Translations under genes and position numbers: made by a program
Origin: a virus
Taxonomy: Duplodnaviria; Caudoviricetes
Length of the DNA: 60,573 nucleotides
IMG/VR virus record: IMGVR_UViG_3300017764_000003
Span: 1-60,573 of that record
Direction: 5' to 3' (one strand)
Notes under the pieces: model-generated
What the model saw: the letters and a program-made list of their open reading frames with translations, nothing else
The model's database searches: none
What the model was told of the DNA's origin: nothing
Part shown: piece by piece, positions 1 through 60,573 of the stretch
How the letters are laid out: each line of letters starts with the position of its first letter
How positions within the stretch are numbered: position 1 is the stretch's first letter

Positions 1-9
1 GAATGGAGC

Positions 10-96
10 ATGAAATTATCTTTAGTTGAGGACTTAATAGATGAGGGAAATCCTCTGAGTCCATTTAAAATTTTAAAACAAAGGAGGTACAAATGA
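10..96 (+). CDS. Small early protein (28 aa, MKLSLVEDLIDEGNPLSPFKILKQRRYK)
   Basis: GGAG directly upstream; ATGA overlap with next gene; read by hand. Confidence 0.45.
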   Translation: MKLSLVEDLIDEGNPLSPFKILKQRRYK

Positions 97-392
97 TTAA
101 TAACTCAGAAACTTTAAACGCATATGCAGTACGTAACTTTATGTACTACCTATGGAACTTTGACAGTAAGCATTTTATTATTGATGGTCAAGGTGAATAT
201 CTACCTTCGTTCTTCTCTGTATGGGAAGACAAGGGGGCTATGATGAATCACATGGTCAGTAAGTATTTAAATATACTTAAGACTAGAGATTGTAATAGTA
301 GCCAAGCTATAATATACTTCTACTTTGAGGTAGATAATCATAATCAAGCAATGATGTCTGATTACGTATACAAAAACTATCAAGGAGCATGA
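93..392 (+). CDS. Hypothetical early protein
   Basis: ORF with AAGGAGG RBS. Confidence 0.75.
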   Translation: MINNSETLNAYAVRNFMYYLWNFDSKHFIIDGQGEYLPSFFSVWEDKGAMMNHMVSKYLNILKTRDCNSSQAIIYFYFEVDNHNQAMMSDYVYKNYQGA

Positions 393-613
393 AGTATAAG
401 GTAAACAGAAATCAATTCTTGAATTGGTACTTCTCAACTAGGAGTATTGAATCTAAATTAAGAAGAAGGTTGCAACGTAACAAGGATGGCGTTGCAACCA
501 TATCTGTAGAAGAATTATTTATGGAGTGTCATATTGTTCCTTCAGGAATAACAGATCACCCTGTAGTTAATAAGTTCTATGATGTAAAAGATTGTGAATT
601 AATTTATAAATAA
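389..613 (+). CDS. Hypothetical early protein
   Basis: AAGGAG RBS, ATGA coupling. Confidence 0.75.
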   Translation: MKYKVNRNQFLNWYFSTRSIESKLRRRLQRNKDGVATISVEELFMECHIVPSGITDHPVVNKFYDVKDCELIYK

Positions 614-623
614 GGAGGTAAAG

Positions 624-887
624 ATGTCTAAGAAAACAGTAACGGTATTATATGAAATGATATACCAAGAAAACGGTGGGTTGTATAGAACACTTAAAAC
701 TAATCTATATACAACCTATAAAAAAGCAAGTGCAGTAATGTGGGAAGACTTTGAAAGTAGAAAAGGATATGATCTATCAAAGATAAACCCAAATAAAGTA
801 TACGCATCTATTGATTATACTTGCAGGAATAATTTAGGACAAGAATGTTTTTATAGAGTAGTAGTAGAAAAAAAGGAGGTGTACTAA
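624..887 (+). CDS. Hypothetical early protein
   Basis: AAGGAGG RBS. Confidence 0.75.
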   Translation: MSKKTVTVLYEMIYQENGGLYRTLKTNLYTTYKKASAVMWEDFESRKGYDLSKINPNKVYASIDYTCRNNLGQECFYRVVVEKKEVY

Positions 888-1327
888 TGGATGATTCATT
901 ATGGAATTACGAGAAAGGATTCAAGATATATAGGAATCTACATAAAGATTGTTGGAGTGTTCAGGCTTACAACAAAGACAAGAAAGGTTGGAGGTTATAT
1001 GCCCATGAGTATTGCTTGAAGGGTATCAACGCTAAGTTCTTGGTAAATGAGAAAGCAAGACAGAAAGTTATTAAAGAAAAGCGTAAGAATGTACACGCAT
1101 TTATTTGGGTTGATGAATATCATACAATAGATGTTAGATACACAGAGAATGCTGATACATTAAAAGAGATGGGATATCTTAGAGGAAAGTACAATCCTTA
1201 CAAGCATGATTCATTCATAGAAGAAAGAGCTTCTCTTCCATTGTTTGACTGCCCTGAAGTGTATCTTCAATGGAGTCATTTATACTTTCAACCTAACTTA
1301 CTTGATAGATATATACTGCAAGTGTAA
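887..1327 (+). CDS. Conserved phage protein of unknown function
   Basis: YRNLHK..WSV, RQKV..EKRKNVHAF and YNPYK motifs recall a widespread phage family; AAGGAGG RBS, TAATG coupling. Confidence 0.75.
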   Translation: MDDSLWNYEKGFKIYRNLHKDCWSVQAYNKDKKGWRLYAHEYCLKGINAKFLVNEKARQKVIKEKRKNVHAFIWVDEYHTIDVRYTENADTLKEMGYLRGKYNPYKHDSFIEERASLPLFDCPEVYLQWSHLYFQPNLLDRYILQV

Positions 1328-1422: not shown

Positions 1423-1453
1423 TTTGGTATTACTAAATAAAAATTTATATTTG
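1423..1453 (+). promoter_or_regulatory. Bacteroidota sigma70-type promoter of the replication module
   Basis: TTTG (1423-1426) - 19 nt - TATATTTG (1446-1453) matches TTTG-N19-21-TAnnTTTG. Confidence 0.75.
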
Positions 1454-22900: not shown

Positions 22901-22904
22901 AATA

Positions 22905-22978: not shown

Positions 22979-22985
22979 TATTTTA

Positions 22986-35876: not shown

Positions 35877-36464
35877 TTATACTCCTAAAAACTTAAGAGC
35901 AGTTTTTAACATTGCCATCTTATCTCCTGCACCATCTCCTCCTTTAGATTGCACTCCATATGAAAGAGCAGCTTGACTATTTTGGTTAAATCCTTTTTGT
36001 AACTGAGCAGCTTGAGCTTCTTCCTTAGTTTGTTTTAGAATTCCTAATTCTAATTTTCTATTACTTATTGTATCAGCTAATCCACTACTTAGCTTTCCTG
36101 CTTCAACACCTTTATCTCTTGTATTTGAACCTATTTTCCTTAGAACATCTCCTATAGCTGCAGTATTTTTAGCATTACCTCCAATAGCTACACCTACTTC
36201 ACCTCCTGACATTCTAGCAGAACTTTGACTTTGTTGTTTTAAAATAGAATTTAATCTTTCCTGATCTGTTTTAGCTACTGCTCCTGTTTCAAAAGCTTTT
36301 TGTTGTCTTCTTAATCTAGCTAATTCTAGTCTTTGTTGCGGATCTTCTACAGGACTTTCTAATGAATCTGCTTTTCTTCTTTTATATGCAGCCATACCCC
36401 CTTGGACTAGTTCTGTTGTTCCTGATATTGCTGCTGCAATTGCTGCTGCTGATGCTAATGGCAT
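35877..36464 (-). CDS. Putative ejection (pilot) protein
   Basis: Ala/Gly-rich N-terminus, Gln-rich helices. Confidence 0.6.
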   Translation of the reverse strand: MPLASAAAIAAAISGTTELVQGGMAAYKRRKADSLESPVEDPQQRLELARLRRQQKAFETGAVAKTDQERLNSILKQQSQSSARMSGGEVGVAIGGNAKNTAAIGDVLRKIGSNTRDKGVEAGKLSSGLADTISNRKLELGILKQTKEEAQAAQLQKGFNQNSQAALSYGVQSKGGDGAGDKMAMLKTALKFLGV

Positions 36465-36979
36465 AACTCTATATTTTTAACTGCGTTATTAAATTTTTCT
36501 TCCCTATTGTTTATCTTTAAAAATTCGACAACTTTTTTTATTTCTTTTTCAGGATCAGATATCATGTCTTCAAAATTAATGAAAATTGTCGAAATTTCTT
36601 TACACATCATATTTATGATTTCATAATTAATATCATACGCAAAAGATGGATCAACGGATTCATTAAGAGCTTTATATACTTCAGTTGTACTTTTAACAGC
36701 ATCTTCTTTATTCCTAACCATTACAATCATTTTCGAAATTAAACTTATATCAAAAAGAGAAAGTGCAGCACCAAAAACTTTTAATGCCTTACCGTAATGT
36801 TCTTTTTTTATTTTTAATAAATCTTCTAGTTCTAATTCATAAAACCCTTTACGATTGTATTTTATTATATTAGAATGACCTTCTATAAAAGCAGGAGCAA
36901 CCATAGGGATTCCTAACTCTTTTAAGGTCTGCATCATCATTGATGTTCCTGTTCTTGAACTTCCTGAAACAACTATCAT
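36455..36979 (-). CDS. Sulfotransferase-family protein
   Basis: VVSGSSRTGTSMMMQ.L PAPS-binding loop, N.KGFYE, MVRN..D...S, FEDMI.DP. Confidence 0.8.
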   Translation of the reverse strand: MIVVSGSSRTGTSMMMQTLKELGIPMVAPAFIEGHSNIIKYNRKGFYELELEDLLKIKKEHYGKALKVFGAALSLFDISLISKMIVMVRNKEDAVKSTTEVYKALNESVDPSFAYDINYEIINMMCKEISTIFINFEDMISDPEKEIKKVVEFLKINNREEKFNNAVKNIELCH

Positions 36980-37536: not shown

Positions 37537-40500
37537 CTAAGCAGCACCACCGCCACCATCAACTTGTTCAACTACTAACGGCTCAATACATTTACAGCTT
37601 TTAGGAGTAATGGTTTCTTGATCTTGAGCATTATTATAACGAGCAGTTATACTTTCGCTTCCTTCAGCTACACAAATCTTAAAGTTTTTTGGCGTAAGGT
37701 TATTAAATGATTGTCCTCCAAATAATAAAGTTACTCCTGTATCATTTGTTGTTAAAATTAAAACATCACCTTCAGCTACTCCAATTGTGTCATTACTAAA
37801 ATATGTTTGCCCATTAGTAAAACTAGAGTCTATTAAATCTATTCCCTTTGGTTGAGCATATAATGTTTCAGAAATTTTAGCTTGTTCATATTCTGATGAA
37901 GGACACTTTATGTTTAGCCAATACTCTTTATGCTTAGAATTATAAGTACCTGTTAATTTAGTTTCAAATCCATCTTCTATATTTTTTAATTCAGGATTTA
38001 ATCTAGAATAATAATTTTGTCTACCTAAATCTAAAACAGTATCATTAAACAATTTATATACTGTGTCTTTGTTTGCCCAATAAATAGATGAGTCTGATTC
38101 TGCTGCAGTCCTCCACATTTCATCAGGCATTCCAATATTCTTTTTAATCCAAACTTGTTTTTGAACTCCTTGACTTTCTGTTCCAATAACAGCTAATTCA
38201 GATCCTGATACTTGAGACAATAATCTTTTATTTGTTACTAATAAACAGATTCCTGATTCTGTAAACGCATACAAGTTATTTCCTTTTTCCCCTTCAGTAT
38301 CATATGCATATTTAATTTCACCTGTTTCATCAGATAAATCAAAAATATTTAATGCTCCAAAAGTTCTTAAATTAGGAGAGTCGCTAACATTAATAGGCTT
38401 AATATCTGACCAAATAATTCTAGTACAGAAATCTGTTTTAGCTTCAAATGCTGATGGCGTTGATGAATATGAATGAAATGTATTTTCAGCAGCGTAGTCT
38501 TGATTTACTACAGATCTATATCTAAAACCTCCATAGTTCCAATAAGTATCTTCTTCTCCTAGTTCATTGTAATATTCTTCAAATACATTTCTTTGCTCTC
38601 CAATAGATTCATTTTGCCATTTATATGGTCTAGCTCTATGATGTACTAATGGATAAAATTGATCTAATGCATTAGGAGAATCAGGATTCATGTACTGACT
38701 ATGTAGCGGTGTTCTGCTTTGAGATATATACATAAGAAGCCATTGCCTTACTCTCATAGAGTTTATGTTTCCTATTGTAGCTACGTTTGAATTCTGAATT
38801 TCATTTGATCCCCCTGTGTTATTTACTATATAATTTCTAGGAGTTATTTCCCACTTATGTTGTGGCATACCAATACTTAACGCAAGATCTAAATCTTTTG
38901 GCTTACTATCATTTTTATATTCAATGTCTACCCATCCTACTGTAGCTTCACTACTAAAAGAATCTCCACCATATATTGATAAAGGGATTCTATCATCATA
39001 CTTAACATATATTATAGAACCTTTAGAAGGTATATAAATATTTGCATCATAGTTGCTAAGTGATATTCCTTTATCTGTAATTGTTGTAGAATCAAAGACT
39101 AAGCTAGGCTTTTGATTTTTATAGTTTTGACCATTCCATTTATGTGAGTAAACTCCATAAACTTTTACTGTAGTTAAAGAAGATGGATCAAGAGTAACTT
39201 CAGCATAACCATTAGATTTTATAGCATTTAGTATTGCTTCTGCAGGAGTTATTGTTTTAGTAGTAATATCTAGCCATCTTTTTTGTGTAGTTGTTCCTTG
39301 CTCTGTTACATAAACAAACTTATTATAATCATGATAGTTTTTAGTTTGACCACTAATTCTAGTTCCGTTAGCGTAATCACCATCGTTGTTCCAAACAATA
39401 TCTGTAATACAGTCTTCCCATCTTTCATCAACAAGTTGCTCTGTAAACCCTACTCCTTTAGATAAGTAGAAAGCAGAATTCATTTGTTGTGTGTGACCTG
39501 TGCTTATATATTGAGTTGACTCTCCTTGAGATGGCTCATTGTTTTCTTTTATAATAGAAGCTATATAATAAGGTTCATGGAAATTTTTTGTTCCACTATC
39601 ACTCATATGCTTAAGACCTGTTCCACCAAAAGAAGCGTTATATAAATTATTATCAAGCTCTACTGTCCAATAGTGACCGCCTCTATTTCCTGAAATTTCT
39701 GATGATCCTGATACATATTTAAAAGATTTAATATTAAAAGTTCTTTTATTATTATTCCAAACAGTAGATGCATTATTATCAGGGTTTCTCCATCTTCCAA
39801 ACGCAACGTATCTAAAAGAAGAATCAGATATTGGCATATCAGAATCATCATTAGGTAAATACCATTTAGTCCCTGAAGGCTTTTGGTCTTTTTGCATATA
39901 AGCAAAACTAATTAAATCAGCTCCTTCATCTTTACCGTTTGATTTATTAATCGTATATATTTCTGTATTAAATCCTACAGGAGATTGTAACACTAGCTTA
40001 TACTCTAATGAAGATGATTGCTCTACGTTAGTTGCTAGATTGCTAAACAATCCATTTGTTGTATCAAAATCTGCACTATAAAAAGTACATATATTTTTTT
40101 CTTTACTTGTATTCTCTCTTTGTTTATAAGCTGAGTCTATACTATACCAAACTAAACCTTCTGCTAAAACTCTCATTGCTGCTTTAGTTCTAACAATAGA
40201 AAAAGATGATGCCCAAGAAGGAGCGTTAATTTTATCTATAGCTAGCCCCATTGCATAAAAGTCATTAGCAAACATATAGTTTTCTTGCCATAGGTTATAG
40301 TCATTATTGCTATACCAAGTTTGTCTATGAGGATTATGATGATGTCCATTACCTGTATTAGCATCATTAATATCTCCAAGCTGTTGTGGCTTTAAAATAG
40401 CGTATGGAGGCTTGTATACTGTACAAGCTTTTGATGTAACATAGTTAAATCTAGAGTCAGGTAAGTCACTTGATTTAGTACATCCTCCACCTGTAGCCCA

Positions 40501-42129
40501 CTCAAGATCAGGTTGGTTAGTTCTTATTGTACCAAATACTTCTTTTTGACATTTAGATCCTTGATCAAGAAATCTAATAAAAGCACATCTGTTTTTTCTA
40601 GCTTTTCTAAGATACGATCCATAACAGTCGTGAGTATAATCTAAATTATTAGATGAGTTTGATCCATACAATGCTCCTGTAAATGATATGTTTTTTGAAT
40701 CATCAGACAATGATTGTCTTTTAGATGGAAACTCAAAATAGTCTTTTACCCCTGTTCCTTGATTAAATTTCAAAGGAGTAGTAAAAGTTTTACTACCATT
40801 AGCATCTCTAAACACAACACCAAATCCATATCTTTCTGAATTCATATATTGTTTTCTATATGCAAATTGCCATGGATCATTATGTCCTGCTAAAAACATA
40901 TGATTTAAAACAGGAAAACCATTAACTTGATTGTTAGATCCTGTACCTACACTAACATCAGTAACATCTTTACCATCTGTAGAGACATTCATAAAGTATA
41001 ACCTATTGTTAAAAAACCTTACAGCTTTTGCTCTAGATATAGATGTTGTAATTAATGTAGCCTCTTCATCAGATATTGCTTCTATTGTATCCATACTTCT
41101 GTCTAGGACATTGTATGATCGTATGCTGTCTTCTTCTAAATCAAATCTAGCTACAATAAAAGCTGTTGGCTTAGAGTCTAATAATACAGGATCTCCTGAA
41201 TTCCATGCAACCCTAATAACTTCACAAGACTTAAATCCTTTTGTTTCATTACCTCTTACAGAAATAGATAATCCATATTCTGTTTCAGAAGCTGTATCAA
41301 ATCCGTAAGTATATGCCCAAGGGTGTATATCTGTGTTTTTACTTATATTTTTGTAAATAGGTATTGTTGGAGTAAACTCTGATATTTCAGTTCTATTCCC
41401 TTCAGAGTCTATAAACCTTACAGCGTAAGCATAAGTACCAACAGTTAATCCATTACCTCCATTAGTAGCATCATAGTTACCTGAATTAGTTGTGTGATAC
41501 TCAAGAAATCTTGGTGAATTAACGGTGTTTGATATGCTAATAGTATATAAATCTGAATCAAACGATCCAAAATATTTGTCGCTTCCATTGTTAGAATTAT
41601 AAATACCTGCATTATCTTCCATGTCTTTTATATTAAAAAACATAGGAGGATTTACATTATCAGTTACATATACCTCTCCGCCAATACAAGATTCATTTTT
41701 GTCCATCTGCAATGGATTATCAAAAGTAAAAGGTATGCTAGATGACTGTGCAACAATTAATCCATCTATTTTTATAGTAGGGTATTTTAATTGGGCATCA
41801 ATATAATCTGTTGTAGAACTTGGTTCGTAAGCCCAAAACTCTATTAATTTGTTGTTTATTTCTATTGCACCAATACATATTTGGTTTGCAGAAATAGCAA
41901 CAGCTCCTACAGATTTAGTAAAACTATTAGTAGAATCTGAATTAGAGTATAATAAAGTTTCTCCTTTAATTTTTTTTAAAGCAGCATTGTCGCCACTCAT
42001 ATCATTTGGTCTGAAATTACAGGCATCAATATATGATCCTTTATCTCCACCTAAAAATTCTTTATTGATGTCATAGTTAGCTCCTTTGCTAAATAGATTT
42101 GACTCATATGGATGGTGCTGCTGCTTCAT
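37537..42129 (-). CDS. Tail stabilization/nozzle protein (1530 aa)
   Basis: F.KG.N.D...Y.DA.N N-terminus, RIIWSD, beta-rich; follows the ring proteins. Confidence 0.7.
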   Translation of the reverse strand: MKQQHHPYESNLFSKGANYDINKEFLGGDKGSYIDACNFRPNDMSGDNAALKKIKGETLLYSNSDSTNSFTKSVGAVAISANQICIGAIEINNKLIEFWAYEPSSTTDYIDAQLKYPTIKIDGLIVAQSSSIPFTFDNPLQMDKNESCIGGEVYVTDNVNPPMFFNIKDMEDNAGIYNSNNGSDKYFGSFDSDLYTISISNTVNSPRFLEYHTTNSGNYDATNGGNGLTVGTYAYAVRFIDSEGNRTEISEFTPTIPIYKNISKNTDIHPWAYTYGFDTASETEYGLSISVRGNETKGFKSCEVIRVAWNSGDPVLLDSKPTAFIVARFDLEEDSIRSYNVLDRSMDTIEAISDEEATLITTSISRAKAVRFFNNRLYFMNVSTDGKDVTDVSVGTGSNNQVNGFPVLNHMFLAGHNDPWQFAYRKQYMNSERYGFGVVFRDANGSKTFTTPLKFNQGTGVKDYFEFPSKRQSLSDDSKNISFTGALYGSNSSNNLDYTHDCYGSYLRKARKNRCAFIRFLDQGSKCQKEVFGTIRTNQPDLEWATGGGCTKSSDLPDSRFNYVTSKACTVYKPPYAILKPQQLGDINDANTGNGHHHNPHRQTWYSNNDYNLWQENYMFANDFYAMGLAIDKINAPSWASSFSIVRTKAAMRVLAEGLVWYSIDSAYKQRENTSKEKNICTFYSADFDTTNGLFSNLATNVEQSSSLEYKLVLQSPVGFNTEIYTINKSNGKDEGADLISFAYMQKDQKPSGTKWYLPNDDSDMPISDSSFRYVAFGRWRNPDNNASTVWNNNKRTFNIKSFKYVSGSSEISGNRGGHYWTVELDNNLYNASFGGTGLKHMSDSGTKNFHEPYYIASIIKENNEPSQGESTQYISTGHTQQMNSAFYLSKGVGFTEQLVDERWEDCITDIVWNNDGDYANGTRISGQTKNYHDYNKFVYVTEQGTTTQKRWLDITTKTITPAEAILNAIKSNGYAEVTLDPSSLTTVKVYGVYSHKWNGQNYKNQKPSLVFDSTTITDKGISLSNYDANIYIPSKGSIIYVKYDDRIPLSIYGGDSFSSEATVGWVDIEYKNDSKPKDLDLALSIGMPQHKWEITPRNYIVNNTGGSNEIQNSNVATIGNINSMRVRQWLLMYISQSRTPLHSQYMNPDSPNALDQFYPLVHHRARPYKWQNESIGEQRNVFEEYYNELGEEDTYWNYGGFRYRSVVNQDYAAENTFHSYSSTPSAFEAKTDFCTRIIWSDIKPINVSDSPNLRTFGALNIFDLSDETGEIKYAYDTEGEKGNNLYAFTESGICLLVTNKRLLSQVSGSELAVIGTESQGVQKQVWIKKNIGMPDEMWRTAAESDSSIYWANKDTVYKLFNDTVLDLGRQNYYSRLNPELKNIEDGFETKLTGTYNSKHKEYWLNIKCPSSEYEQAKISETLYAQPKGIDLIDSSFTNGQTYFSNDTIGVAEGDVLILTTNDTGVTLLFGGQSFNNLTPKNFKICVAEGSESITARYNNAQDQETITPKSCKCIEPLVVEQVDGGGGAA

Positions 42130-48015: not shown

Positions 48016-48258
48016 CTATCTTTTTTTACCTTTATGTAATCCATGAGATGCGTGCTGCTTTCCTTTCTTAGTCGCTTCTCTTTTCTTTTTATTAGCAGCT
48101 TGTAATTTTTTCTTGCCTTCTGAAGTCTTTAGCAAGTTAGCAATAACTTTTGCAGGAGCATATACTTCTCCTGTTTCAGATGATTTTTTTCCTGAAGCTG
48201 TTCTCCACTTCTGTTTAGTCCATCTGTCTAAATCTTTTTGTGGTTTCTTTTTACTCAT
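48016..48258 (-). CDS. Basic DUF5872-like protein (C-terminal-type half)
   Basis: L.RWTKQKWRT.SGK.S..TGE.Y.P motif. Confidence 0.7.
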   Translation of the reverse strand: MSKKKPQKDLDRWTKQKWRTASGKKSSETGEVYAPAKVIANLLKTSEGKKKLQAANKKKREATKKGKQHASHGLHKGKKR

Positions 48259-48443
48259 CTGTAACCTCCTCCTTTTGCTTTATATTTTTTTGCTAGCATT
48301 TGAGCTTTACGTGCTGACCATTGACCTGCGTTTCCTCCTTTAGTTCCACGCTTAATAGCTTCAAACAAAGCTTTTCTTAATGCAGGTTTAGTATAGTTTC
48401 CTGCTTCATTTACTTTGCTTTTATATTTTTTCTTAGCTGACAT
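48255..48443 (-). CDS. Basic DUF5872-like protein (N-terminal-type half)
   Basis: NYTKP.LR...KGG..GQWSARKAQ.L...YK..GGGY. Confidence 0.7.
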   Translation of the reverse strand: MSAKKKYKSKVNEAGNYTKPALRKALFEAIKRGTKGGNAGQWSARKAQMLAKKYKAKGGGYR

Positions 48444-53379: not shown

Positions 53380-53535
53380 TTAAAATTTGGTATACACTAA
53401 AACTGTTTCAACATTACATTCATCACTTGGGCAGCTATAGTTGGAAACCATCCCATCACCATCGCCATCAATTCCATAATCCTCATATGTGTGATCACCA
53501 CCCCATATCAATTCCGTTCCACAATTACATATCAT
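53380..53535 (-). CDS. 51-aa Cys-containing microprotein (MICNCGTELIWGGDH...SCP..C)
   Basis: Read by hand; absent from the ORF track; fills the gap before terL. Confidence 0.7.
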   Translation of the reverse strand: MICNCGTELIWGGDHTYEDYGIDGDGDGMVSNYSCPSDECNVETVLVYTKF

Positions 53536-53547: not shown

Positions 53548-54102
53548 TTATTCTTTATCTCTACTAAAAGCCGAAGGCTTTTTGCGTAAATCATTTTCTA
53601 CAAATAACCCTGTCTTCTTCCTGATATTAAGCCTACTACCCTTCCAAGCTATTGCAGGATTAACATAATAAACTTTCTTCTGTTTAGATCCATGCTTAAT
53701 TATCAGTCGGTATCCTATCAATGCATTAATACTTGTTGTTACCGAACTCAAGGACATAGACAGTTCCTTTGATAGCTTCCTGTAAGTAATACCGAATACA
53801 GCATTCTCATATCCCATCTTGGATATAAAATAAAGTATAACCTTAATCTGATTAGGCGATAACGTACTCATCAAATCCTGAAGCGACTTCTGATATAGAG
53901 TCGAATATGATACCTTATCGTTAACACCTTTCTTAATCCTGTTAAGTACATTGATAGAATCAGCCCCATAGTATTCAGCTATCTTTGTCATCTCTCCTGT
54001 CTTCTCATTCATATGATATAAAGACTCGGAGGTTAATAGTTCAGGATCAATAGAGTTAAGATTACTATGAAGGATGTTTAATGTCTTTCTTAGTTTCTTC
54101 AT
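53548..54102 (-). CDS. RepL-like winged-HTH protein
   Basis: TYRKLSKELSMS.SSV..SI..L and YYVNP.IAWKG. Confidence 0.7.
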   Translation of the reverse strand: MKKLRKTLNILHSNLNSIDPELLTSESLYHMNEKTGEMTKIAEYYGADSINVLNRIKKGVNDKVSYSTLYQKSLQDLMSTLSPNQIKVILYFISKMGYENAVFGITYRKLSKELSMSLSSVTTSINALIGYRLIIKHGSKQKKVYYVNPAIAWKGSRLNIRKKTGLFVENDLRKKPSAFSRDKE

Positions 54103-54433: not shown

Positions 54434-54722
54434 ATCTATAATTCTGTTTTATATAATCTATAATTTGAATATAGCATTTCTTGTTTTCCCAATCATCATG
54501 AATCCTATCTAGGAAGAAGTCTATAGTCTCCCATTCCCATTCATACTTATCAAGAGAATCTGTTTCAGGTATTGTGTGGATTACTATAGTAGATAAACGA
54601 TTTAATATGCCTGTGGTTTTTAACACCCTAGCAAACACGCCTACCTCCAATTCAACAACATCTCCTTTTGCTATGTCATCTAGATCTATCCGTTTCTTAT
54701 ACTTGTGAAACTTAATTGCCAT
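54393..54722 (-). CDS. Hypothetical protein, first gene of the late arm
   Basis: ORF. Confidence 0.6.
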   Translation of the reverse strand: MAIKFHKYKKRIDLDDIAKGDVVELEVGVFARVLKTTGILNRLSTIVIHTIPETDSLDKYEWEWETIDFFLDRIHDDWENKKCYIQIIDYIKQNYRYEQFKKKLEKFRK

Positions 54723-54937
54723 ATACTAATATACTAATAATATTATGCTTGTACGCATGAGAGCATCACTTTGTTACTCTGAGTAATACATCTTTTTTTG
54801 ATAATCGCCTGATAATCAACTACTTCTTGATTATCCCCCTATATATATTGTTATTGGTATATAATATATACTATAGACTATAAACTATTCTTTACTGTTA
54901 ATCATTTACTTATAGGCATTAACTTCCCCTTAAAGTA

Positions 54938-55005
54938 TCTTTCTTTATTTCTTTCTTTCTTTGCATACCACCTTGCATTACATATGCTATGCACTTGCAT
55001 TACTT
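54938..55005 (-). repeat. TGCA-repeat block C plus AAAG tract
   Basis: 54956-54979 (minus) matches 1358-1381 at 22/24 nt. Confidence 0.8.
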
Positions 55006-55189
55006 ATGTATAAAGTTATTTATGTTATACTATTAATTGTTTATGCTTTGTTTATAATTGTTTACTGTAGAACTTAAACGCATTGGTATCTGTTAGGGTA
55101 GTATTAATATAGAATAGCCCCTCGACTTTTACAGGAAAATCAATAGTTTCAGAAGATCAACAGCCTAACGAAATAAAAGGATTCTTTTT

Positions 55190-55504
55190 ATAACCGACTG
55201 ATTATCAATTAGTTATATGTACGGTTTTTACTCATATATATTTCCTTTAATTTATAACTTGTTGAGTTTCAACGGCTTGAAGTCAGGGTAAATGTATGTC
55301 TGTGGGTAAAACAACAATACCCAAACCTATCAACCTATTGATTATCAACGACTTATGTTTTGACGAAAATCTCAATTGGGCTTGTTTGTTACAAATTTGT
55401 TGACAATGGGCATTTTGACGAAATCAGGACTCATATATATATATAGGAAAACTTAGTCAGATCCATCTATAGGGTTATAACTTGTTGATTATCAACGACT
55501 TACG
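55190..55504. repeat. Four ~27-bp imperfect palindromes centred on TGATTATCA
   Basis: Copies at ~55190, 55252 (TGAGTTTCA variant), 55331, 55475; related cores at 54799-54836. Confidence 0.8.
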
Positions 55505-55511
55505 ACTTTTA

Positions 55512-55544
55512 TTTGGATAATTCAAAACTTTTATTGATAGTTAG
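55512..55544 (+). promoter_or_regulatory. Possible early promoter for the structured RNA and early genes
   Basis: TTTG at 55512, degenerate -7 (ATAGTTAG); composition shifts right after it. Confidence 0.35.
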
Positions 55545-56073
55545 GACATCAGCAAAACAGCACACCACGCTACTAGCTGATACAAGCAAGTTACTTGAAA
55601 CGCACACAATGTAACCTCTGTTTACGACAATATGCGTTTGTTACAAAGGCTACCACCGTATGCATTGTAACGAGAGGAACGGTGGGAGTGGGTTCTACCT
55701 TACTGACTTACCAAGGGGTTCTACCTCGTCAGGACAACACTCGATGGCTATAGGATAACAGCCGATAATTTGCCGAGCAAAGCAGAAACTTTGTTGGGAG
55801 TCTGAGCAACAGAATTAAGCAAAAGCGTGTGAGGTATGTAGAACAGGACAGCTACGTACTGCAGAAATGCCACACAAGTCTATGTTCCATTAGGGGCTCA
55901 AAGGATAGGTTTTAGTAGGGTTGAATACCTTGCATTTCCGTAAAAATAAAAGTCATAACAAGGCGTAGGTAGTTCGTACTAGGTGCAATGTATGTTGTAC
56001 GGTATGAATAAGATGCATTTGTCAGGTGAGTAAGGCAAAGTAAGACATTAGATCGAATCTGACCTACGCCTCA
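55545..56073 (+). ncRNA. Large structured RNA of unknown family with a 3' tRNA-like domain
   Basis: No long ORF; GC-richer than flanks; more than ten nested helices; G-U wobble pairs favour the + strand. Confidence 0.7.
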
Positions 56074-56106
56074 ATTATTAATCAAACACACACTAAATTC
56101 AAAGTT

Positions 56107-56454
56107 ATGGCTAAGTCAAACAATTATCAAGAGAATGTATTAAATGTTAATGCAAGTTACAAGAAGGTTTCTAAATCATTAGGTGCAATACGTTCATCGT
56201 TACTAGCAATGGATGGTACAACCATCAAAGATTCAGAAGGCAAAGATATTGTATTCAAGTTACCTTCTTTCACTAAGAAGGTGCTAACCTTTATGAAGAA
56301 GAACCAAAATGCTTACAAGTTTGTAAAGCAAGAGGTTAGAAAGACAAAGGATGGAGAAAATACAACTGTATTCTATGTATTACAGAAGCTAGGTAATCAA
56401 AAGTTCGAAAACGCTTTCAAAGCAAAGTTCTTAATAGCTACACCTAAAAAGTAA
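56107..56454 (+). CDS. First early protein, basic
   Basis: ORF after the structured RNA; A-rich leader without SD. Confidence 0.75.
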   Translation: MAKSNNYQENVLNVNASYKKVSKSLGAIRSSLLAMDGTTIKDSEGKDIVFKLPSFTKKVLTFMKKNQNAYKFVKQEVRKTKDGENTTVFYVLQKLGNQKFENAFKAKFLIATPKK

Positions 56455-56459
56455 GGAGC

Positions 56460-56744
56460 ATGAAATCATTAAATTTACAAGTCACAGGCACAATAGTGTT
56501 TGTGGCTATGTTGCTATGTGCATGGTTTATGGACTATGAAACTAGAACAGAAAAGTATCATACGAGTCAGGTTACAGCAGTACACTTATATCATGCCTTT
56601 GTTGATGGGACAATCATGCAAGGGGACAATCTACATGAGTTATGGTATTGTCAAGATGCTAACTATGATCATTATTATTTCAATGTAGAAGTAGGGACTA
56701 ATGTATTTGGTCACGAAACTAGAACCTATAAAGGAGGATATTAG
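56460..56744 (+). CDS. Early protein with N-terminal TM helix
   Basis: AAGGAG RBS. Confidence 0.65.
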   Translation: MKSLNLQVTGTIVFVAMLLCAWFMDYETRTEKYHTSQVTAVHLYHAFVDGTIMQGDNLHELWYCQDANYDHYYFNVEVGTNVFGHETRTYKGGY

Positions 56745-56745
56745 A

Positions 56746-56922
56746 ATGAGTAAGAAAGAATATGTGTCTACCATATTGCAATTCGTTAATAAGGTAGATA
56801 GTGCTTCAAATAAGTTGCACATAGAGAATGTGAATATGCTAGTAGATGTAATGATTGAGCAATCACGTACAGATGTGCTAAATGCATGGATTTGTGAGTT
56901 AAAAAGCAAAAAGGAGGCTTAA
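56746..56922 (+). CDS. Small early protein
   Basis: AAGGAGG RBS places the start at 56746. Confidence 0.65.
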   Translation: MSKKEYVSTILQFVNKVDSASNKLHIENVNMLVDVMIEQSRTDVLNAWICELKSKKEA

Positions 56923-56926
56923 GATT

Positions 56927-57073
56927 ATGTATAAATGTATGTTTAGAGCAAGTGGAGGATCGTATTCTATGAATTATTACGATCTACCAACAGAAGAAGA
57001 AGAAGAAATCATAGAGATAATAAAATCAGATGGATGGGAAGTATTAGAAGTATACGACATCAAACAACAATAA
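56927..57073 (+). CDS. 48-aa acidic early protein
   Basis: Read by hand; AAGGAGG RBS. Confidence 0.65.
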   Translation: MYKCMFRASGGSYSMNYYDLPTEEEEEIIEIIKSDGWEVLEVYDIKQQ

Positions 57074-57091
57074 AATAAAAGGAGGCTTAAG

Positions 57092-57331
57092 ATGAGTAAG
57101 ATAAGCAAGTATTACCCTATGGATGAAGCATTCTGTGGGGTTATTGAGGATTTACACGTAGATGTTGATCATCAAATAGCATTGTGCCAAGAGATGATAG
57201 ATTGGTATGAGTATAGAGAGTTTATGGGATATGAGTGCAAATTGGGTAGACAAAGAGCCAAAAAGCATCATGCAATAGCCTCTAATATATCAAAGAAGAT
57301 AGATTTATTCCTTAACGTATGTAAAAACTAG
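57092..57331 (+). CDS. Hypothetical early protein
   Basis: AAGGAGG RBS. Confidence 0.7.
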   Translation: MSKISKYYPMDEAFCGVIEDLHVDVDHQIALCQEMIDWYEYREFMGYECKLGRQRAKKHHAIASNISKKIDLFLNVCKN

Positions 57332-57335
57332 AAAA

Positions 57336-58070
57336 GTGAAAAGAGCAGTATTCAAGCGTGGCGACACCTTACAAGTAGTAAGACTCGGCACATCAACTAA
57401 CAAGAAAATTATAGACAATCCAAAAGAGTTGTTTATTCAGACGTATACGTTTAGTAAGAAGCAATTCGAACATATTGCCAACGGTAGACCTGAAGGCAAA
57501 GGTATGAAAGTGTTCTTCGGTATGGCTGACACCAATTGCTTGGACTGTCCTTTCAATAGTTTTGGTAAGTGTTATACACATCAGTACGACCAATACATAG
57601 GCTTCATAAGTATGCTGAAGTCTATTGTAAAAGTATATAGTACATGGGATGATCTACCCAAATACACACCAATCATAGGTAAGACCGTTATTAGTTGGTC
57701 AAAAGATAGGTATGTTAGATTTGGATCTTATGGTGAGCCTAGTTTACATCCTGAAGGTATGATAGAATCAATGTCATTCGTCAGCTATAGATGGACAGGG
57801 TATACTCATCAATGGAAAAAGAATCCAACGCTCGGCAAATACTTCATGGCTAGTACACATAGTCTGTATGAAGAAGCTATTGCAAGAGCAAAAAATTATA
57901 GAAGTTTTATGGTAGTTGAAAAAGACCAATCTAGTTCAAGTGAATTAACATCTTGTCCTGCCTCTAAAGAAGGTGGGTACAAGACTACTTGTAATCTATG
58001 TGGTCTGTGTTCAGGTACTTCAGGTACTAAAGCAGTACGATCAGTTGAAATTATTAATCACGCTAAATAA
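57336..58070 (+). CDS. Cys-rich, possibly radical-SAM-fold (gp88-like) protein
   Basis: CxxCP..CY, RFGSYGEP, GYTHQW, CPA...CxxCxxC. Confidence 0.7.
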   Translation: MKRAVFKRGDTLQVVRLGTSTNKKIIDNPKELFIQTYTFSKKQFEHIANGRPEGKGMKVFFGMADTNCLDCPFNSFGKCYTHQYDQYIGFISMLKSIVKVYSTWDDLPKYTPIIGKTVISWSKDRYVRFGSYGEPSLHPEGMIESMSFVSYRWTGYTHQWKKNPTLGKYFMASTHSLYEEAIARAKNYRSFMVVEKDQSSSSELTSCPASKEGGYKTTCNLCGLCSGTSGTKAVRSVEIINHAK

Positions 58071-58077
58071 AGCAACA

Positions 58078-58374
58078 ATGGCAAAGGAAAGACTAAGTAA
58101 GAGAGAGTATTTTACTCAAAGATTAAATCAAGCGATTGAAAACAATAAACTTGATAAGGTTAAGTATTATTCATCTAGACTAGCACAGCTAGACGAAAAA
58201 GAAAAGAATGAACACGATCTTATAGAGATTCCATTAGTAGAGATGTTTGGATCTAGAGATACTATTAGGGAGGCTATAAAGTATGCTGAATCATTTAAGG
58301 ATATCGGCACTACAACATCAGCCTTCGTATTACTTAACACAATTGCTGATAAGTATTATCTAGTAGAAAAGTAA
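58078..58374 (+). CDS. Hypothetical early protein
   Basis: Start moved to MAKERLS. Confidence 0.65.
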   Translation: MAKERLSKREYFTQRLNQAIENNKLDKVKYYSSRLAQLDEKEKNEHDLIEIPLVEMFGSRDTIREAIKYAESFKDIGTTTSAFVLLNTIADKYYLVEK

Positions 58375-58379
58375 GACAT

Positions 58380-58676
58380 ATGGCAGAAATAATCTTAAGA
58401 ACGCCTCTGAATAGATTTCAGGGGCTTTCTAGTACAAAGAAGTCTTTAGTATTCCTGACTAGTAATCACAATGGTAAATACTATTCAATTCCTATGTGGT
58501 CAGTCATATCTAAAAGAGAGTACGAGAAGACTGTGAACTCATACGTGATGAAGTTCATAGAAGTTAAATTTGACAGCAAAGCTATTGAAGGTGTGTATGC
58601 AGGTGCTGTTTCTTTAAAATACACCTTAGAATTTCTTGAAGAATTAAATAAAAATGGAACTAAAATTTTAAGATAA
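58380..58676 (+). CDS. Hypothetical early protein
   Basis: ORF. Confidence 0.65.
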   Translation: MAEIILRTPLNRFQGLSSTKKSLVFLTSNHNGKYYSIPMWSVISKREYEKTVNSYVMKFIEVKFDSKAIEGVYAGAVSLKYTLEFLEELNKNGTKILR

Positions 58677-59044
58677 TGAATATTAGACGTAACAAAGCTA
58701 TCAACTTAATCAAAAAGATTAAGAGCAAAGGACATTCATTTGGTGTGACTTACATCAAAAAGAACGGTGAAGAAAGAACAATGTTAGCTAGGCTAGGTGT
58801 TCAACCTAACTACGAAAAGAAAAGAGAACAAGCCTATACTCCAAGTGATTATGGTTTGCTTACGGTTCTTGATGTTAACAAGACTAGAGTAGCTAGGAAG
58901 ATTAAAAAGGATAAAGACCTGAAGGTATACAGACAAGTTAATGTCAACACCTTGTGCAGAATTAAGTACGGAGGTATAACTTACTTTGTTATCGGTAACG
59001 AGTTAGATAAGAACGCTTACAAATCAAATAAAAAGGAGGTATAA
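58676..59044 (+). CDS. SH3-beta-barrel (DUF2693/WYL-like) protein
   Basis: F.V.YIKKNGEERTM.A...V.D...YR motif. Confidence 0.65.
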   Translation: MNIRRNKAINLIKKIKSKGHSFGVTYIKKNGEERTMLARLGVQPNYEKKREQAYTPSDYGLLTVLDVNKTRVARKIKKDKDLKVYRQVNVNTLCRIKYGGITYFVIGNELDKNAYKSNKKEV

Positions 59045-59045
59045 G

Positions 59046-59333
59046 ATGAAATTTGATAGAAATATTTACAATATAATATTGGTTCACGTTGCTAGAACTT
59101 GGGAAAGATTAAGACTTAATCAACCACACCAAGAAATGCCTTTAGACAACATAGAGAGTGCAGAAGAGTTACAATTCATAGCTGATTTTGTTATCGAAAC
59201 AGATTTAGTTCAAGAATTTTTAACTAATAAAGATGGTGGTATTTGGGATAAGTTTGGAGATGGTTGTAGCGATGTTTACATAGAAAAGATTGCTGCAGAA
59301 TATATTACTGAAAATTATTTAACAATAAAATAA
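59046..59333 (+). CDS. Hypothetical early protein
   Basis: AAGGAGGTATAAGATG junction. Confidence 0.7.
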   Translation: MKFDRNIYNIILVHVARTWERLRLNQPHQEMPLDNIESAEELQFIADFVIETDLVQEFLTNKDGGIWDKFGDGCSDVYIEKIAAEYITENYLTIK

Positions 59334-59345
59334 AAGGAGGAAAAG

Positions 59346-59645
59346 ATGAATTACGTAGGAAAAAGATTAGAAGTTTTTAGGAATCAGGGTGACAGAGATG
59401 CAAGGATTGTATCAATGGCACATGGTCTTGATGTTGGATTACTTAATGATGAGATTGATGTACTAATAGAGTACGAGATGCCAAACGGTACAACAGCATT
59501 GAACATTGTTAAACCTGATGGAAGTTATAAGACTCTGCCATACGGAAAGCTACAGTCTAGCAAGAAATGGAGAGAGCATTTAGATGAAAGTTTATTGATC
59601 AATAACCCACAATCGGGTAAGAAGTTTAAATTAGAGGAGGTATAA
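59346..59645 (+). CDS. Hypothetical early protein
   Basis: AAGGAGG RBS. Confidence 0.7.
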   Translation: MNYVGKRLEVFRNQGDRDARIVSMAHGLDVGLLNDEIDVLIEYEMPNGTTALNIVKPDGSYKTLPYGKLQSSKKWREHLDESLLINNPQSGKKFKLEEV

Positions 59646-59646
59646 G

Positions 59647-59946
59647 ATGAAAGTCATTAAAGTAAACAATCAAAAGTGCGAAGTTATATTTGAAAAATAT
59701 ATGATGAACGGAGCAACAGCTATTAATTTAATTTGTTTAGATGAAGGAGAGCCATATGCTACAGCCACCATCAATATGCCTGAAGTTTATCTAGAAAAAG
59801 ATGAACTTATTATTAAAAACTATGGCGAAAACGAAGGCATATTAGATGCACTCGTTAAAGAAAATATAGTTGAAGACACAGGGGTAAAGGTTAACGTAGG
59901 TTATGCTTACGCTAACATTTGTAAATTAAAAACAAAGGAGGTATAA
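59647..59946 (+). CDS. DUF4313-like protein
   Basis: GEPYATATIN...IKNY.EN.G....L...I...TG....G motif. Confidence 0.7.
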   Translation: MKVIKVNNQKCEVIFEKYMMNGATAINLICLDEGEPYATATINMPEVYLEKDELIIKNYGENEGILDALVKENIVEDTGVKVNVGYAYANICKLKTKEV

Positions 59947-59947
59947 G

Positions 59948-60118
59948 ATGAGTGATCAAAGATTTAGTATCAACTTAACAATGTCAGACATTGAAGAGTT
60001 ACACGAAAGAATACTTAACGCTGACGATGGTGAGCAAGAGATAGTATTTGAATGGGGAATTATGAATTTAGATGGCGATCAAGCCGAATTAACTATCTCA
60101 GTAGGAGATGATGAATAA
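59948..60118 (+). CDS. 56-aa highly acidic early protein
   Basis: Read by hand; AAGGAGGTATAAGATG junction. Confidence 0.7.
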   Translation: MSDQRFSINLTMSDIEELHERILNADDGEQEIVFEWGIMNLDGDQAELTISVGDDE

Positions 60119-60135
60119 AACAAAGGAGGTATAAG

Positions 60136-60309
60136 ATGACTAGAGATATATCACTACCAAACGGAGAATATCTACAAATTAAATTTGAATATGCAGGTTT
60201 AGTTTATGATAGATATGATAAGAATGATAATCTAATTGAGGAATTAGGATACGATTTATATATTGAAACGTGTCCACATTTATTTAAAGAAGGTGAACAA
60301 CCATTTTAA
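60136..60309 (+). CDS. 57-aa early protein
   Basis: Read by hand; AAGGAGGTATAAGATG junction. Confidence 0.7.
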   Translation: MTRDISLPNGEYLQIKFEYAGLVYDRYDKNDNLIEELGYDLYIETCPHLFKEGEQPF

Positions 60310-60322
60310 AAGGAGGTATAAT

Positions 60323-60568
60323 ATGGAATTAAAATTAGCAGAATTATTAGAGAGTCGCAATTATGCAATAGAAATTAGAGAAGATTATTCAGGTCGTGGG
60401 ATGTACGGTAAAAGCACAGCAGGAATTGTATGTGATGAGTCCGATATGTTTGAAGCACTTGCAGAAATAATGGAAAGTGGTGACAAAGAAGAAAGAGAAT
60501 ACGTAGCCAAAGAAATCAGATATGGATTCAGAACAGATTCAATGGGGTATTCAACAATTTATTATTAA
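60323..60568 (+). CDS. Conserved small phage protein
   Basis: YSGRGMYG...D.MG...IYY motif; RBS places the start at 60323. Confidence 0.75.
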   Translation: MELKLAELLESRNYAIEIREDYSGRGMYGKSTAGIVCDESDMFEALAEIMESGDKEEREYVAKEIRYGFRTDSMGYSTIYY

Positions 60569-60573
60569 AACAA

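What the first reader, a model, noticed from the sequence alone, without database searches (positions are those of the whole stretch)
56452..60573. Strong Shine-Dalgarno/stop/start junctions concentrated in early genes of a Bacteroidota-type phage
Seen: about 14 early genes (this interval plus 1-889) have AAGGAG(G), often as AGGAGGTATAAGATG (~59034, 59635, 59936, 60124) or AAGGAGGCTTAAGAT (56911, 57079). Several upstream proteins therefore end in KEV/EEV/KEA. The replication and structural gene starts I inspected have AT-rich leaders without SD. Known: Bacteroidota mRNAs generally lack SDs because the anti-SD is sequestered by bS21/bS18/bS6, with rpsU autoregulation as an exception. Inference: early genes are tuned to anti-SD-liberated ribosomes or SD-assisted reinitiation, or the junction is a recombination joint for shuffling one-gene cassettes. 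A link to the upstream large RNA is conceivable.
Basis: partly seen in the sequence, partly recalled or inferred. Interest (0 to 1): 0.7.

Follow-up and report, generated by a model that had tools for sequence, protein, structure and literature searches.

The report
Shine-Dalgarno junctions between phage early genes
A marine phage that probably infects Bacteroidota, bacteria whose ribosomes normally ignore Shine-Dalgarno start signals, puts perfect copies of that signal in a repeated joint between its small early genes only, and this joint is also where natural variants gain, lose or swap those genes.

Summary
Twelve of 20 early ORFs carry a 7-10-nt perfect Shine-Dalgarno (SD) site, mostly AAAGGAGGT, 5-9 nt before ATG. 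Only 1 of 54 other genes does (p=6.6e-8).

The other genes carry Bacteroidia-type signals: TATATTTG promoter boxes in intergenic gaps, adenines at -3/-6/-12/-13, and replication genes nearest to Flavobacteriia phages. A SAR11 phage control has SD sites in all modules. No phage bS21 gene is present.

The SD sits inside a stereotyped 20-27-nt joint: stop, A-run, SD, TATAAG, ATG. Relatives (terminase 47-76% identical) lack the SD cluster. One relative has its own stereotyped, SD-less early joint (TAAAACTTATCAATC-ATG).

Contigs from other public runs show nearly identical variants in which cassettes are missing, or skipped or replaced, with breakpoints at these joints.

So the recombination-joint reading is supported. 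The SD geometry is canonical, but whether host ribosomes use it is untested. The likely users are the bS21-free subpopulation known from Flavobacterium johnsoniae.

The host is inferred, and the record is about 88% complete.

This scan earlier noted the mirror pattern on other DNA (phage bS21 with SD on late genes); those notes are unchecked.

I rate this a new variant of a known kind.

The parts
56107..60573 (+). Early-gene block, left piece: 15 small ORFs (48-244 aa), 9 of them SD-led
1..1327 (+). Early-gene block, right piece: ORFs 93-392, 389-613, 624-887, 887-1327 and an open-ended ORF ending at 96. The record is linear and about 88% complete, so sequence may be missing between 60573 and 1.
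56730..56748 (+). Joint AAAGGAGGATATTAGA-ATG; the upstream ORF ends KGGY*
56910..56929 (+). Joint AAAGGAGGCTTAAGATT-ATG; the upstream ORF ends KKEA*
57066..57094 (+). Joint AACAATAAAATAAAAGGAGGCTTAAG-ATG; its first 20 nt are identical to 59321-59340
59025..59048 (+). Joint ..AAAAAGGAGGTATAAG-ATG; the upstream ORF ends KKEV*
59321..59348 (+). Joint AACAATAAAATAAAAGGAGGAAAAG-ATG
59626..59649 (+). Joint ..TTAGAGGAGGTATAAG-ATG; the upstream ORF ends LEEV*. The variants T59631C and T59632A in run X3 make it more like the consensus.
59927..59950 (+). Joint TAAAAACAAAGGAGGTATAAG-ATG; the upstream ORF ends TKEV*
60115..60138 (+). Joint ATAAAACAAAGGAGGTATAAG-ATG (intergenic)
60305..60325 (+). Joint TTAAAAGGAGGTATAAT-ATG (intergenic)
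72..95 (+). Joint TTAAAACAAAGGAGGTACAA-ATG
608..626 (+). Joint AAATAAGGAGGTAAAG-ATG
868..889 (+). Joint AAAAAGGAGGTGTACTA-ATG (10-nt match); the upstream ORF ends KEVY*
56455..56462 (+). GGAGC-ATG, with only 1 nt between GGAG and ATG; too close for a normal SD. The same 10-mer GGAGCATGAA also occurs at 384-393 and 5-14.
57336..59044 (+). Four consecutive early ORFs without SD. All four have homologs in SD-less relatives.
48016..48274 (-). The only SD-led gene outside the block (80 aa; AAAGGAGGAGGTTACAG-ATG). It is absent from G001 and G002; its homologs are in Pelagibacter and Roseobacter phages.
1423..1453 (+). TTTG-N19-TATATTTG, a Bacteroidota-type promoter at the start of the SD-less replication module
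54723..56106 (.). 1.4-kb non-coding stretch ahead of the early block. It has no TAnnTTTG box on the + strand.

Best explanation
The interval is the early-gene module of a marine tailed phage whose other genes carry Bacteroidia-type expression signals. Its small genes behave as single-gene cassettes separated by one stereotyped 20-27-nt joint. The joint runs: stop codon of the gene before, an A-run, an 8-10-nt perfect Shine-Dalgarno site (AAAGGAGGT), a 5-9-nt spacer (mostly TATAAG), then ATG.

Shown:
- the motif, its restriction to early genes, and its canonical SD geometry;
- its absence from relatives, one of which has a different, SD-less stereotyped early joint;
- cassette loss, or skipping or replacement, with breakpoints at these joints in nearly identical natural variants.

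Inferred:
- The joint is a portable translation start that is kept uniform because co-circulating phages exchange cassettes by recombination within it.
- Its SD part pairs with the 16S 3' tail on ribosomes where the tail is not sequestered. In a Bacteroidia host that is the bS21-free subpopulation. Pairing could occur at fresh initiation or when a ribosome restarts after the upstream stop.
- The adenines kept at -3, -12 and -13 would let ordinary ribosomes start too, so the joint is a dual-mode early start site.

My odds: about 0.75 that the joint is both a start site and a recombination joint, and about 0.35-0.4 that the SD part is actually used by host ribosomes.
For: Class restriction and geometry:
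- 12/20 early ORFs versus 1/54 others are SD-led (p=6.6e-8).
- Matches are 7-10 nt and spacers 5-9 nt; 12 of 16 GGAGG in the block lie at starts.
- AAGGAGG occurs 15 times against 5.1 expected.

Host type:
- TATATTTG occurs 4 times in 1415 nt of sense intergenic DNA, against 0.15 expected (p=2e-5).
- The box is kept upstream of the same gene in the window, G001 and G002.
- In the 54 other starts, A is .59 at -3.61 at -6 (C 0).65 at -12 and .59 at -13. Early starts keep A at -3 (.80), -12 (.80) and -13 (.75). PMC9976891 section 25 names these four positions for F. johnsoniae.
- The primase/helicase is nearest to Riemerella, Flavobacterium, Tenacibaculum and Cellulophaga phages at 31-36% identity.
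- The pelagiphage control has SD at 18/64 (strong) and 35/64 (any) starts, in all modules.

The joint as a family trait:
- In G002, 8 of 21 listed early ORFs end in TCAATC-ATG and 4 more keep the TAAAAC part.
- L014 has 6 CCTTAAAA-type joints and 2 AGGAGGAAACATATT-ATG joints among 23 ORFs.

Recombination:
- An exact 20-mer, AACAATAAAATAAAAGGAGG, occurs at two joints and is read with different stop positions.
- An X5 contig joins 56745 to 57092, skipping exactly two cassettes, with 10 shared letters (ATGAGTAAGA).
- One X3 contig matches only 59026-59051, 59456-59650, 60113-60139 and 60324 onward. Another X3 contig is colinear over 59026-60334 with 17 differences.

In-place change: the homolog of SD-led ORF 59647 in G002 has an SD-less leader.

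No foreign composition: codon usage of the SD-led genes correlates r=.93 with late genes, and their GC3 is .279 against .266 for replication genes.

Literature:
- bS21-lacking ribosomes translate strong-SD reporters better (PMC9976891 abstract and section 25).
- More than 10% of F. johnsoniae ribosomes lack bS21 (PMC13000453 Discussion).
Against: - The host is inferred, not identified.
- Relatives do without SD. None of the distinct terminase relatives has the cluster, and 63 of 80 loci around the shared 244-aa early gene have no SD-led ORF. So SD is not needed for early expression in this family.
- SD-led genes are mostly orphans. The four SD-less early genes are the ones shared with relatives, which fits imported cassettes.
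- In F. johnsoniae wild type, adding AGGAGGU to the tuf leader lowered the reporter somewhat (PMC9976891 section 25).
- Flavobacteriales genomes are depleted of SD (section 32).
- rpsU-type control uses 9-13 bp, with the core Gs at -11 to -15. Here the core lies at -7 to -11.
- The X3 joints have short sides (37, 27 and 20 letters) and were laid at 80% likeness. The tool warns that such joints can come from other organisms or repeats.
- Only 40 of 418 differences were listed, so conservation of the SD core across variants could not be counted.
Confidence: 0.5

Rival explanations
1. Neutral passenger. The SD is simply part of a joint that arrived with cassettes from phages of SD-using hosts and spread by recombination. 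The SD-blind host ribosomes start on the A-rich context and never pair with the SD.
For: - SD-led genes are mostly orphans or have homologs in phages of SD-using hosts: Pelagibacter and Roseobacter; Pseudomonas, Gordonia and Rhizobium; Bacillus and Mycobacterium.
- The SD-less early genes are the ones shared with relatives.
- Relatives have SD-less joints.
- Bacteroidia ribosomes are described as blind to SD (PMC13000453 abstract).
- Cassette flux occurs at the joints.
Against: - Twelve sites are intact over 7-10 nt at canonical spacing in a 32% GC genome, and there are no decayed copies among the 12.
- The donors named have diverse ribosome-binding sites, yet the joints here are uniform.
- The SD-led genes have the phage's own codon usage.
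- The homolog of SD-led ORF 59647 in G002 is SD-less.
- Flavobacteriales appear to select against SD, so strict neutrality is doubtful.
Confidence: 0.25
2. The host is not SD-blind. Its ribosomes can pair with SD sites although its own genes rarely have them, and the phage gives early messages a strong site to out-compete host messages at the start of infection.
For: - The SD geometry is canonical.
- The host is unknown.
- Small contigs in genome bins that carry the 244-aa gene are labelled Alphaproteobacteria, though such binning of phage contigs is unreliable.
- Outside Flavobacteriales, some Bacteroidia have SD sites on several ribosomal protein genes (PMC9976891 section 32).
Against: - If SD helped, the capsid, portal and other highly expressed late genes should have it, but only 1 of 54 does.
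- A SAR11 phage of similar GC has SD in all modules.
- Bacteroidota-type promoter boxes and adenine positions are present.
Confidence: 0.12
3. The joint is the target of a phage-made post-transcriptional switch, as with T4 RegB, which cuts GGAG in early messages, or RegA. Each phage lineage would have its own joint sequence and a matching factor that shuts off early genes.
For: - This explains early-only restriction, uniformity within a genome and a different joint in G002.
- RegB cleaves within GGAG and inactivates early T4 mRNAs (PMC1702504, start of abstract in the listing).
Against: - No RegB- or RegA-like family appeared in the Pfam or PHROG scans of the gene calls submitted; eight short ORFs were not scanned.
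- A 9-nt perfect SD at SD spacing would be an unlikely coincidence for an arbitrary protein site.
- It does not explain breakpoints at the joints.
Confidence: 0.08

Closest known systems
rpsU (bS21) autoregulatory extended SD of Bacteroidia (McNutt 2023, PMC9976891; Naeem 2026, PMC13000453)
   Same: Both are strong SD sites in a lineage whose ribosomes otherwise ignore SD. The length (up to 9-10 nt) reaches the lower end of the rpsU range. It would be read by the same bS21-free ribosomes.
   Different: Here there are 12 phage genes rather than one host gene. The core lies at -7 to -11, not about -11 to -15. Matches are 7-10 bp rather than 9-13. Upstream adenines are kept, so initiation need not depend on the SD. 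No autoregulatory logic applies.
Phage-encoded bS21 in Bacteroidetes myophages (Chen 2022, PMC9723584), and this scan's unchecked notes of SD on their late genes
   Same: Both concern a Bacteroidota phage in which anti-SD access might separate classes of messages.
   Different: This record has no bS21 gene. The SD sites are on early genes, not late ones. In the passages of the paper I searched, SD appears only in a general description of bS21.
Conserved gene-boundary sequences of mosaic phages (lambdoid and other phages; recalled, no paper read here)
   Same: Both have short repeated sequences at gene boundaries, with gene content varying between them in related genomes.
   Different: Here the boundary is itself a complete translation start with a consensus SD, is confined to one temporal class, and differs in sequence between sister lineages.
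T4 early messages with GGAG sites cut by RegB (PMC1702504)
   Same: Both have GGAG-containing start regions specific to early genes.
   Different: No RegB-like gene was found here, and T4's host uses SD for all gene classes.

Membership tests
Canonical Shine-Dalgarno start site | At least 4-5 nt complementary to the CCUCC core of the 16S 3' tail | tested here: met
   7-10 nt matches at 12 starts. The tail sequence used is a recalled general motif; the host's own 16S is unknown.
Canonical Shine-Dalgarno start site | Core about 4-10 nt upstream of the start codon | tested here: met
   Spacers of 5-9 nt, most often 6. The three GGAGC-ATG sites (1 nt) fail this test.
Canonical Shine-Dalgarno start site | Enriched at starts over other positions | tested here: met
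   12 of 16 GGAGG in the block lie at starts. AAGGAGG occurs 15 times against 5.1 in shuffles.
Canonical Shine-Dalgarno start site | Pairs with the host ribosome and raises initiation | not testable with these tools
   The host is unknown and no RNA run is listed.
rpsU-type extended SD (bS21 autoregulation) | 9-13 consecutive base pairs, -14 to -21 kcal/mol | tested here: inconclusive
   Six of 12 sites reach 9-10 nt and the rest 7-8. My duplex energies are -11.8 to -15.6 kcal/mol, by a different method and a recalled 10-nt tail.
rpsU-type extended SD (bS21 autoregulation) | Precedes the bS21 gene | tested here: not met
   No Ribosomal_S21 match in six frames or in the Pfam scans.
rpsU-type extended SD (bS21 autoregulation) | Translated faster by ribosomes lacking bS21 | not testable with these tools
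   Needs reporters or purified ribosomes.
Cassette boundary / recombination joint | The same short sequence at many gene boundaries | tested here: met
   Six copies of a 27-nt family and an exact 20-mer pair.
Cassette boundary / recombination joint | Gene content differs between the same boundaries in close variants, with breakpoints at the joint | tested here: met
   X5 joins 56745 to 57092 with 10 shared letters. One X3 contig matches only joint-proximal pieces. This rests on single low-depth contigs, some with short sides.
RegB-type early-message cleavage | A phage RegB-like endoribonuclease | tested here: not met
   No such family in the PHROG or Pfam scans; eight short ORFs were not scanned.
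Phage-bS21-linked SD usage | A phage-encoded bS21 | tested here: not met
   The record is about 88% complete, so a gene in a missing part cannot be excluded.

The most novel reading that the evidence does not exclude
The early genes of this Bacteroidia phage are built to be read by the bS21-free 'specialised' ribosomes that the host otherwise keeps for one message, rpsU. This would give the incoming phage an uncontested pool of ribosomes in the first minutes. By competing with rpsU it would also lower bS21 supply and tilt the cell further towards SD-dependent translation. It would be a natural counterpart to phage-encoded bS21, working in the opposite temporal direction.
Probability: 0.3. Interest if true: 0.85.

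Novelty: new variant of a known kind. Interest (0 to 1): 0.6.

Why it matters
In Flavobacteriales the only known job of the anti-SD in initiation is rpsU autoregulation (PMC9976891 section 32; PMC13000453). A phage that puts a dozen strong SD sites on one temporal class of genes would be the first natural set of messages, other than rpsU, that could report on bS21-free ribosomes. The strains needed to test it already exist. Separately, the joints are a clear case of a translation start doubling as a recombination joint, with sister lineages using different joint sequences. That bears on how phage early-gene repertoires turn over. My two literature searches listed no paper that reports class-specific SD use in a Bacteroidota phage.

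Tried and rejected
- **DNA similarity:** DNA search of the early block against cultured phages found no match.
- **RNA features:** Rfam and tRNA scans of the window found nothing. Rfam at E<=1 on 54700-56200 also found nothing.
- **Giant proteins:** The 3554-aa and 1686-aa proteins gave no meaningful match to solved structures (one chance-level hit at E=0.75 for the first, none for the second). None of the four large proteins has a DFDxD-type motif. So a virion RNA polymerase could be neither shown nor excluded.
- **Full Bacteroidota promoter pattern:** TTTG-N16-22-TAnnTTTG is not enriched genome-wide (3 against 4.8 expected). Only the -7 box in intergenic gaps is informative.
- **Sigma-70-like promoters and terminators** in 54600-60573 are at or below chance.
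- **Exact joint searches in IMG/VR:** I did not examine the host type of those contigs. The 21-mer gave none.
- **Closer relatives:** An SD-led protein as query gave one distant hit. The terminase in metagenomes gave nothing closer than 67-70%.
- **Host from genome bins:** Small contigs are labelled Parvibaculum, Sphingomonadaceae and others. I rejected this as host evidence because such contigs are probably mis-binned phage.
- **RNA evidence:** No RNA holder was listed.
- **Uncovered stretches:** Parts of the stretch without contig cover in runs X5-X7 are not evidence.
- **Earlier notes:** Earlier notes of this scan on this genome and on look-alike stretches: none.
- **Slips corrected:** Coordinate slips, and a too-short search term.

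Full report
**What the record is**

The window is the whole record: 60,573 bp, one contig, classed linear and about 88% complete. GC content is 32.4%.

Small ORFs on the + strand fill 56107-60573 and 1-1327. Both ends of the record therefore lie in the same module, and some sequence may be missing between them.

A + strand replication module follows at 1424-11343. It holds a DnaA-C-like HTH protein, DUF932, a Rad52-like protein, primase/helicase, SSB, MazG and DUF1064.

A - strand lysis and virion module runs from 11387 to 54722. It holds a holin, an M15 endolysin, an SU10-type capsid protein, the portal, the terminase, an HNH protein and three giant ORFs of 3554, 1686 and 1530 aa with no family match.

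A 1.4-kb non-coding stretch (54723-56106) precedes the small-ORF block. That the block is 'early' is inferred from this layout, not shown.

**The observation**

It holds.
- A scan of all gene starts found AAAGGAGG(T) before starts 56746, 56927, 57092, 59046, 59346, 59647, 59948, 60136, 60323, 93, 624 and 887.
- By class, 12 of 20 early ORFs and 1 of 54 others have GGAGG or AAGGAG at -18..-4 (p=6.6e-8). With any 4-mer of the core the counts are 12/20 and 4/54. ORF 10-96 may be the tail of a gene cut by the record end; without it the early count is 12/19.
- Matches to the complement of the 16S tail are 7-10 nt. Spacers are 5-9 nt, most often 6. Twelve of the 16 GGAGG on the + strand of the block sit at starts.
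- AAGGAGG occurs 15 times against 5.1 +/- 2.0 in shuffles.
- Three further starts (56460, 389, 10) share GGAGCATGAA, with only 1 nt between GGAG and ATG. That is too close for a normal SD, and I cannot explain them.
- Five early ORFs have no SD: the first (56107) and four in a row (57336-59044).
- The only SD-led gene elsewhere is 48016-48258 on the - strand. It is an 80-aa gene absent from relatives, with homologs in Pelagibacter and Roseobacter phages.

**The host**

No cultured relative exists for the virion genes. The capsid protein has no match, and the portal is 23% identical to two Bacteroides phages. Four lines of evidence point to Bacteroidota.
- The primase/helicase is nearest to Riemerella, Flavobacterium, Tenacibaculum and Cellulophaga phages, at 31-36% identity.
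- The box TATATTTG matches the Bacteroidota -7 element TAnnTTTG; that assignment is recalled, not taken from a call. It occurs 4 times in 1415 nt of sense intergenic DNA, against 0.15 expected (p=2e-5). It is kept about 20 nt upstream of the same gene in the window, G001 and G002 although the flanks differ.
- The 54 SD-less starts have A peaks at -3, -6, -12 and -13. McNutt et al. name these positions for efficient starts in F. johnsoniae (PMC9976891 section 25).
- A SAR11 phage of similar GC content has strong SD at 18 of 64 starts and any SD at 35 of 64, across all modules. So the SD-poor state here is not just a low-GC marine trait.

A preprint notes that Cellulophaga phages lack the SD feature (10.1101/2021.04.21.440840, one passage). 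Marine origin fits the contigs laid from two runs labelled marine metagenome, with pieces 99% or more alike.

**The relatives**

The terminase query found 17 IMG/VR loci and 20 metagenome loci, 39-76% identical.
- None has the SD cluster. This is shown by AAGGAGG counts against a reversed-pattern control in four whole contigs, and by SD-plus-start scans of contigs and loci.
- Five cultured Bacteroidota phages have no such cluster either.
- Around homologs of the 244-aa early protein, 63 of 80 loci have no SD-led ORF, 11 have one, 3 have two, 2 have three and 1 has six.
- The locus with six, L166, has its own stereotyped GGAGG(T/C)(A/G)ACAA-ATG joint. Five of the six overlap the upstream stop as ATGA.
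- G002 (terminase 67% identical, syntenic) has a different stereotyped joint in its early block, TAAAAC-TT(A/T)TCAATC-ATG. It is exact in 8 of 21 listed ORFs and partial in 4 more. Identical copies occur in two other contigs.
- L014 has CCTTAAAA-type joints and two AGGAGGAAACATATT-ATG joints.

So a uniform early joint recurs in this family, while the SD version is peculiar to this lineage. The homolog of SD-led ORF 59647 in G002 has an SD-less leader.

**The joint as a recombination site**

Within the window the repeats extend beyond the SD. There are six copies of a 27-nt family, and an exact 20-mer at 57066 and 59321 in which the upstream stop falls at different places.

Twenty public DNA runs from 13 studies hold part of the stretch. 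I laid four of them.
- An X5 contig joins 56745 directly to 57092. It skips exactly two cassettes, with ten shared letters (ATGAGTAAGA, the common start of both ORFs).
- One X3 contig matches only 59026-59051, 59456-59650, 60113-60139 and 60324 onward. Its joints fall just after the joint ATG.
- Another X3 contig is colinear over 59026-60334 with 17 differences.
- Two listed differences (59631 and 59632) make that joint more like the consensus.

These are single low-depth contigs, some with sides under 30 letters, laid at 80% likeness. The tool warns that such joints can come from other phages or repeats. Even on that reading, the same joint flanks different genes.

**Origin of the SD-led genes**

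- They are mostly orphans. Among 117 related loci, only 59647, 93 and 887 have homologs, whereas all four SD-less genes at 57336-59044 do.
- Homologs in cultured phages lie in phages of SD-using hosts.
- Yet their codon usage is the phage's own: r=.93 with late genes, and GC3 .279 against .266 for replication genes.

Import and in-place evolution both remain possible.

**How it may work**

Shown: a canonical SD in form, restricted to early genes, embedded in a recombining joint.

From the literature:
- Bacteroidia ribosomes sequester the anti-SD with bS21, bS18 and bS6.
- Ribosomes lacking bS21 translate strong-SD reporters better and SD-less messages worse.
- Flavobacteriales typically have one strong-SD gene, rpsU.
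- More than 10% of F. johnsoniae ribosomes lack bS21.

These points come from the PMC9976891 abstract and sections 25 and 32, and the PMC13000453 abstract and Discussion.

Inferred: the SD part engages that subpopulation, and the adenines kept at -3, -12 and -13 serve ordinary ribosomes.

Against this: relatives manage without SD; a 7-nt SD slightly lowered a reporter in the wild type; and rpsU uses longer helices at a different distance. The record has no bS21 gene.

Unchecked notes of this scan describe the mirror case on other DNA: T4-like Bacteroidota phages with their own bS21 and SD on late genes.

**Verdict**

The Bacteroidota-type host is probable but not identified. The cassette-joint reading is supported, and SD use by host ribosomes remains open. 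I rate it a new variant of a known kind, with interest 0.6.

Noticed in passing
window 1326-1400 (+), 22900-22985 (-), 54940-55010 (pointing left); G001 53466-53500 and 689-720; G002 1732-1772 and 10411-10452: Arrays of an 11-nt periodic motif (TGCAWTRCA type), followed by a (GAAA)n tract, sit just upstream of TATATTTG promoter boxes at 1446 and 22900. The third array (54940-55010) points left, but no box was found downstream of it. In all three phages an array pair flanks the early block, facing outward. They look like upstream binding sites for middle or late promoters.
   Followed up: partly
window 55540-56106: A GC-richer stretch (up to 46% GC) lies just before the first early gene. It folds at z=-2.1 against shuffles, has no Rfam match, and has no nucleotide similarity in G001, G002 or G003. 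I saw no CCTCC on its + strand (by eye).
   Followed up: partly
window 54799-55502: Four to five copies of an iteron-like repeat containing the near-palindrome TTGATTATCAAC lie near a RepL/HTH_36-like gene (53548-54102). This may be a replication origin.
   Followed up: no
window 5-14, 384-393, 56455-56464: There are three copies of GGAGCATGAA in which the ATG is a gene start only 1 nt after GGAG. This is a second stereotyped joint with non-canonical spacing, and I cannot explain it.
   Followed up: partly
G002 (rc) about 6330, 5000 and 4735; L238 has the same: GC-rich palindromes (GGGCCCCCGGGCCC, CCAGGGGCCACCTGGGCCCC) lie between early genes of the relative, directly before its SD-less joint. 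They may be terminators or processing sites.
   Followed up: no
L166 2763-3384 and 10896-12622 (contig G005): A second otherwise SD-poor phage has six SD-led small genes with the joint GGAGG(T/C)(A/G)ACAA-ATG. Five of them overlap the upstream stop as ATGA.
   Followed up: partly
window 16757-21817, 22986-33650, 37537-42129: Three giant virion-module ORFs (1686, 3554 and 1530 aa) have no Pfam or PHROG match. The two searched (1686 and 3554 aa) have no meaningful match to solved structures. None has a DFDxD motif. They are conserved at 28-42% identity in G001 and G002.
   Followed up: partly
whole window: GC at third codon positions is .17 in the - strand late genes but .27-.32 in the + strand early and replication genes.
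   Followed up: no
ON245412.1 (Riemerella phage vB_RanS_PJN03): There are nine AAGGAGG on one strand against 3 for the reversed control, scattered over 3.7-33 kb. This is possible SD use in a Weeksellaceae phage.
   Followed up: no
window 36455-36979: A sulfotransferase-domain protein lies inside the virion module.
   Followed up: no
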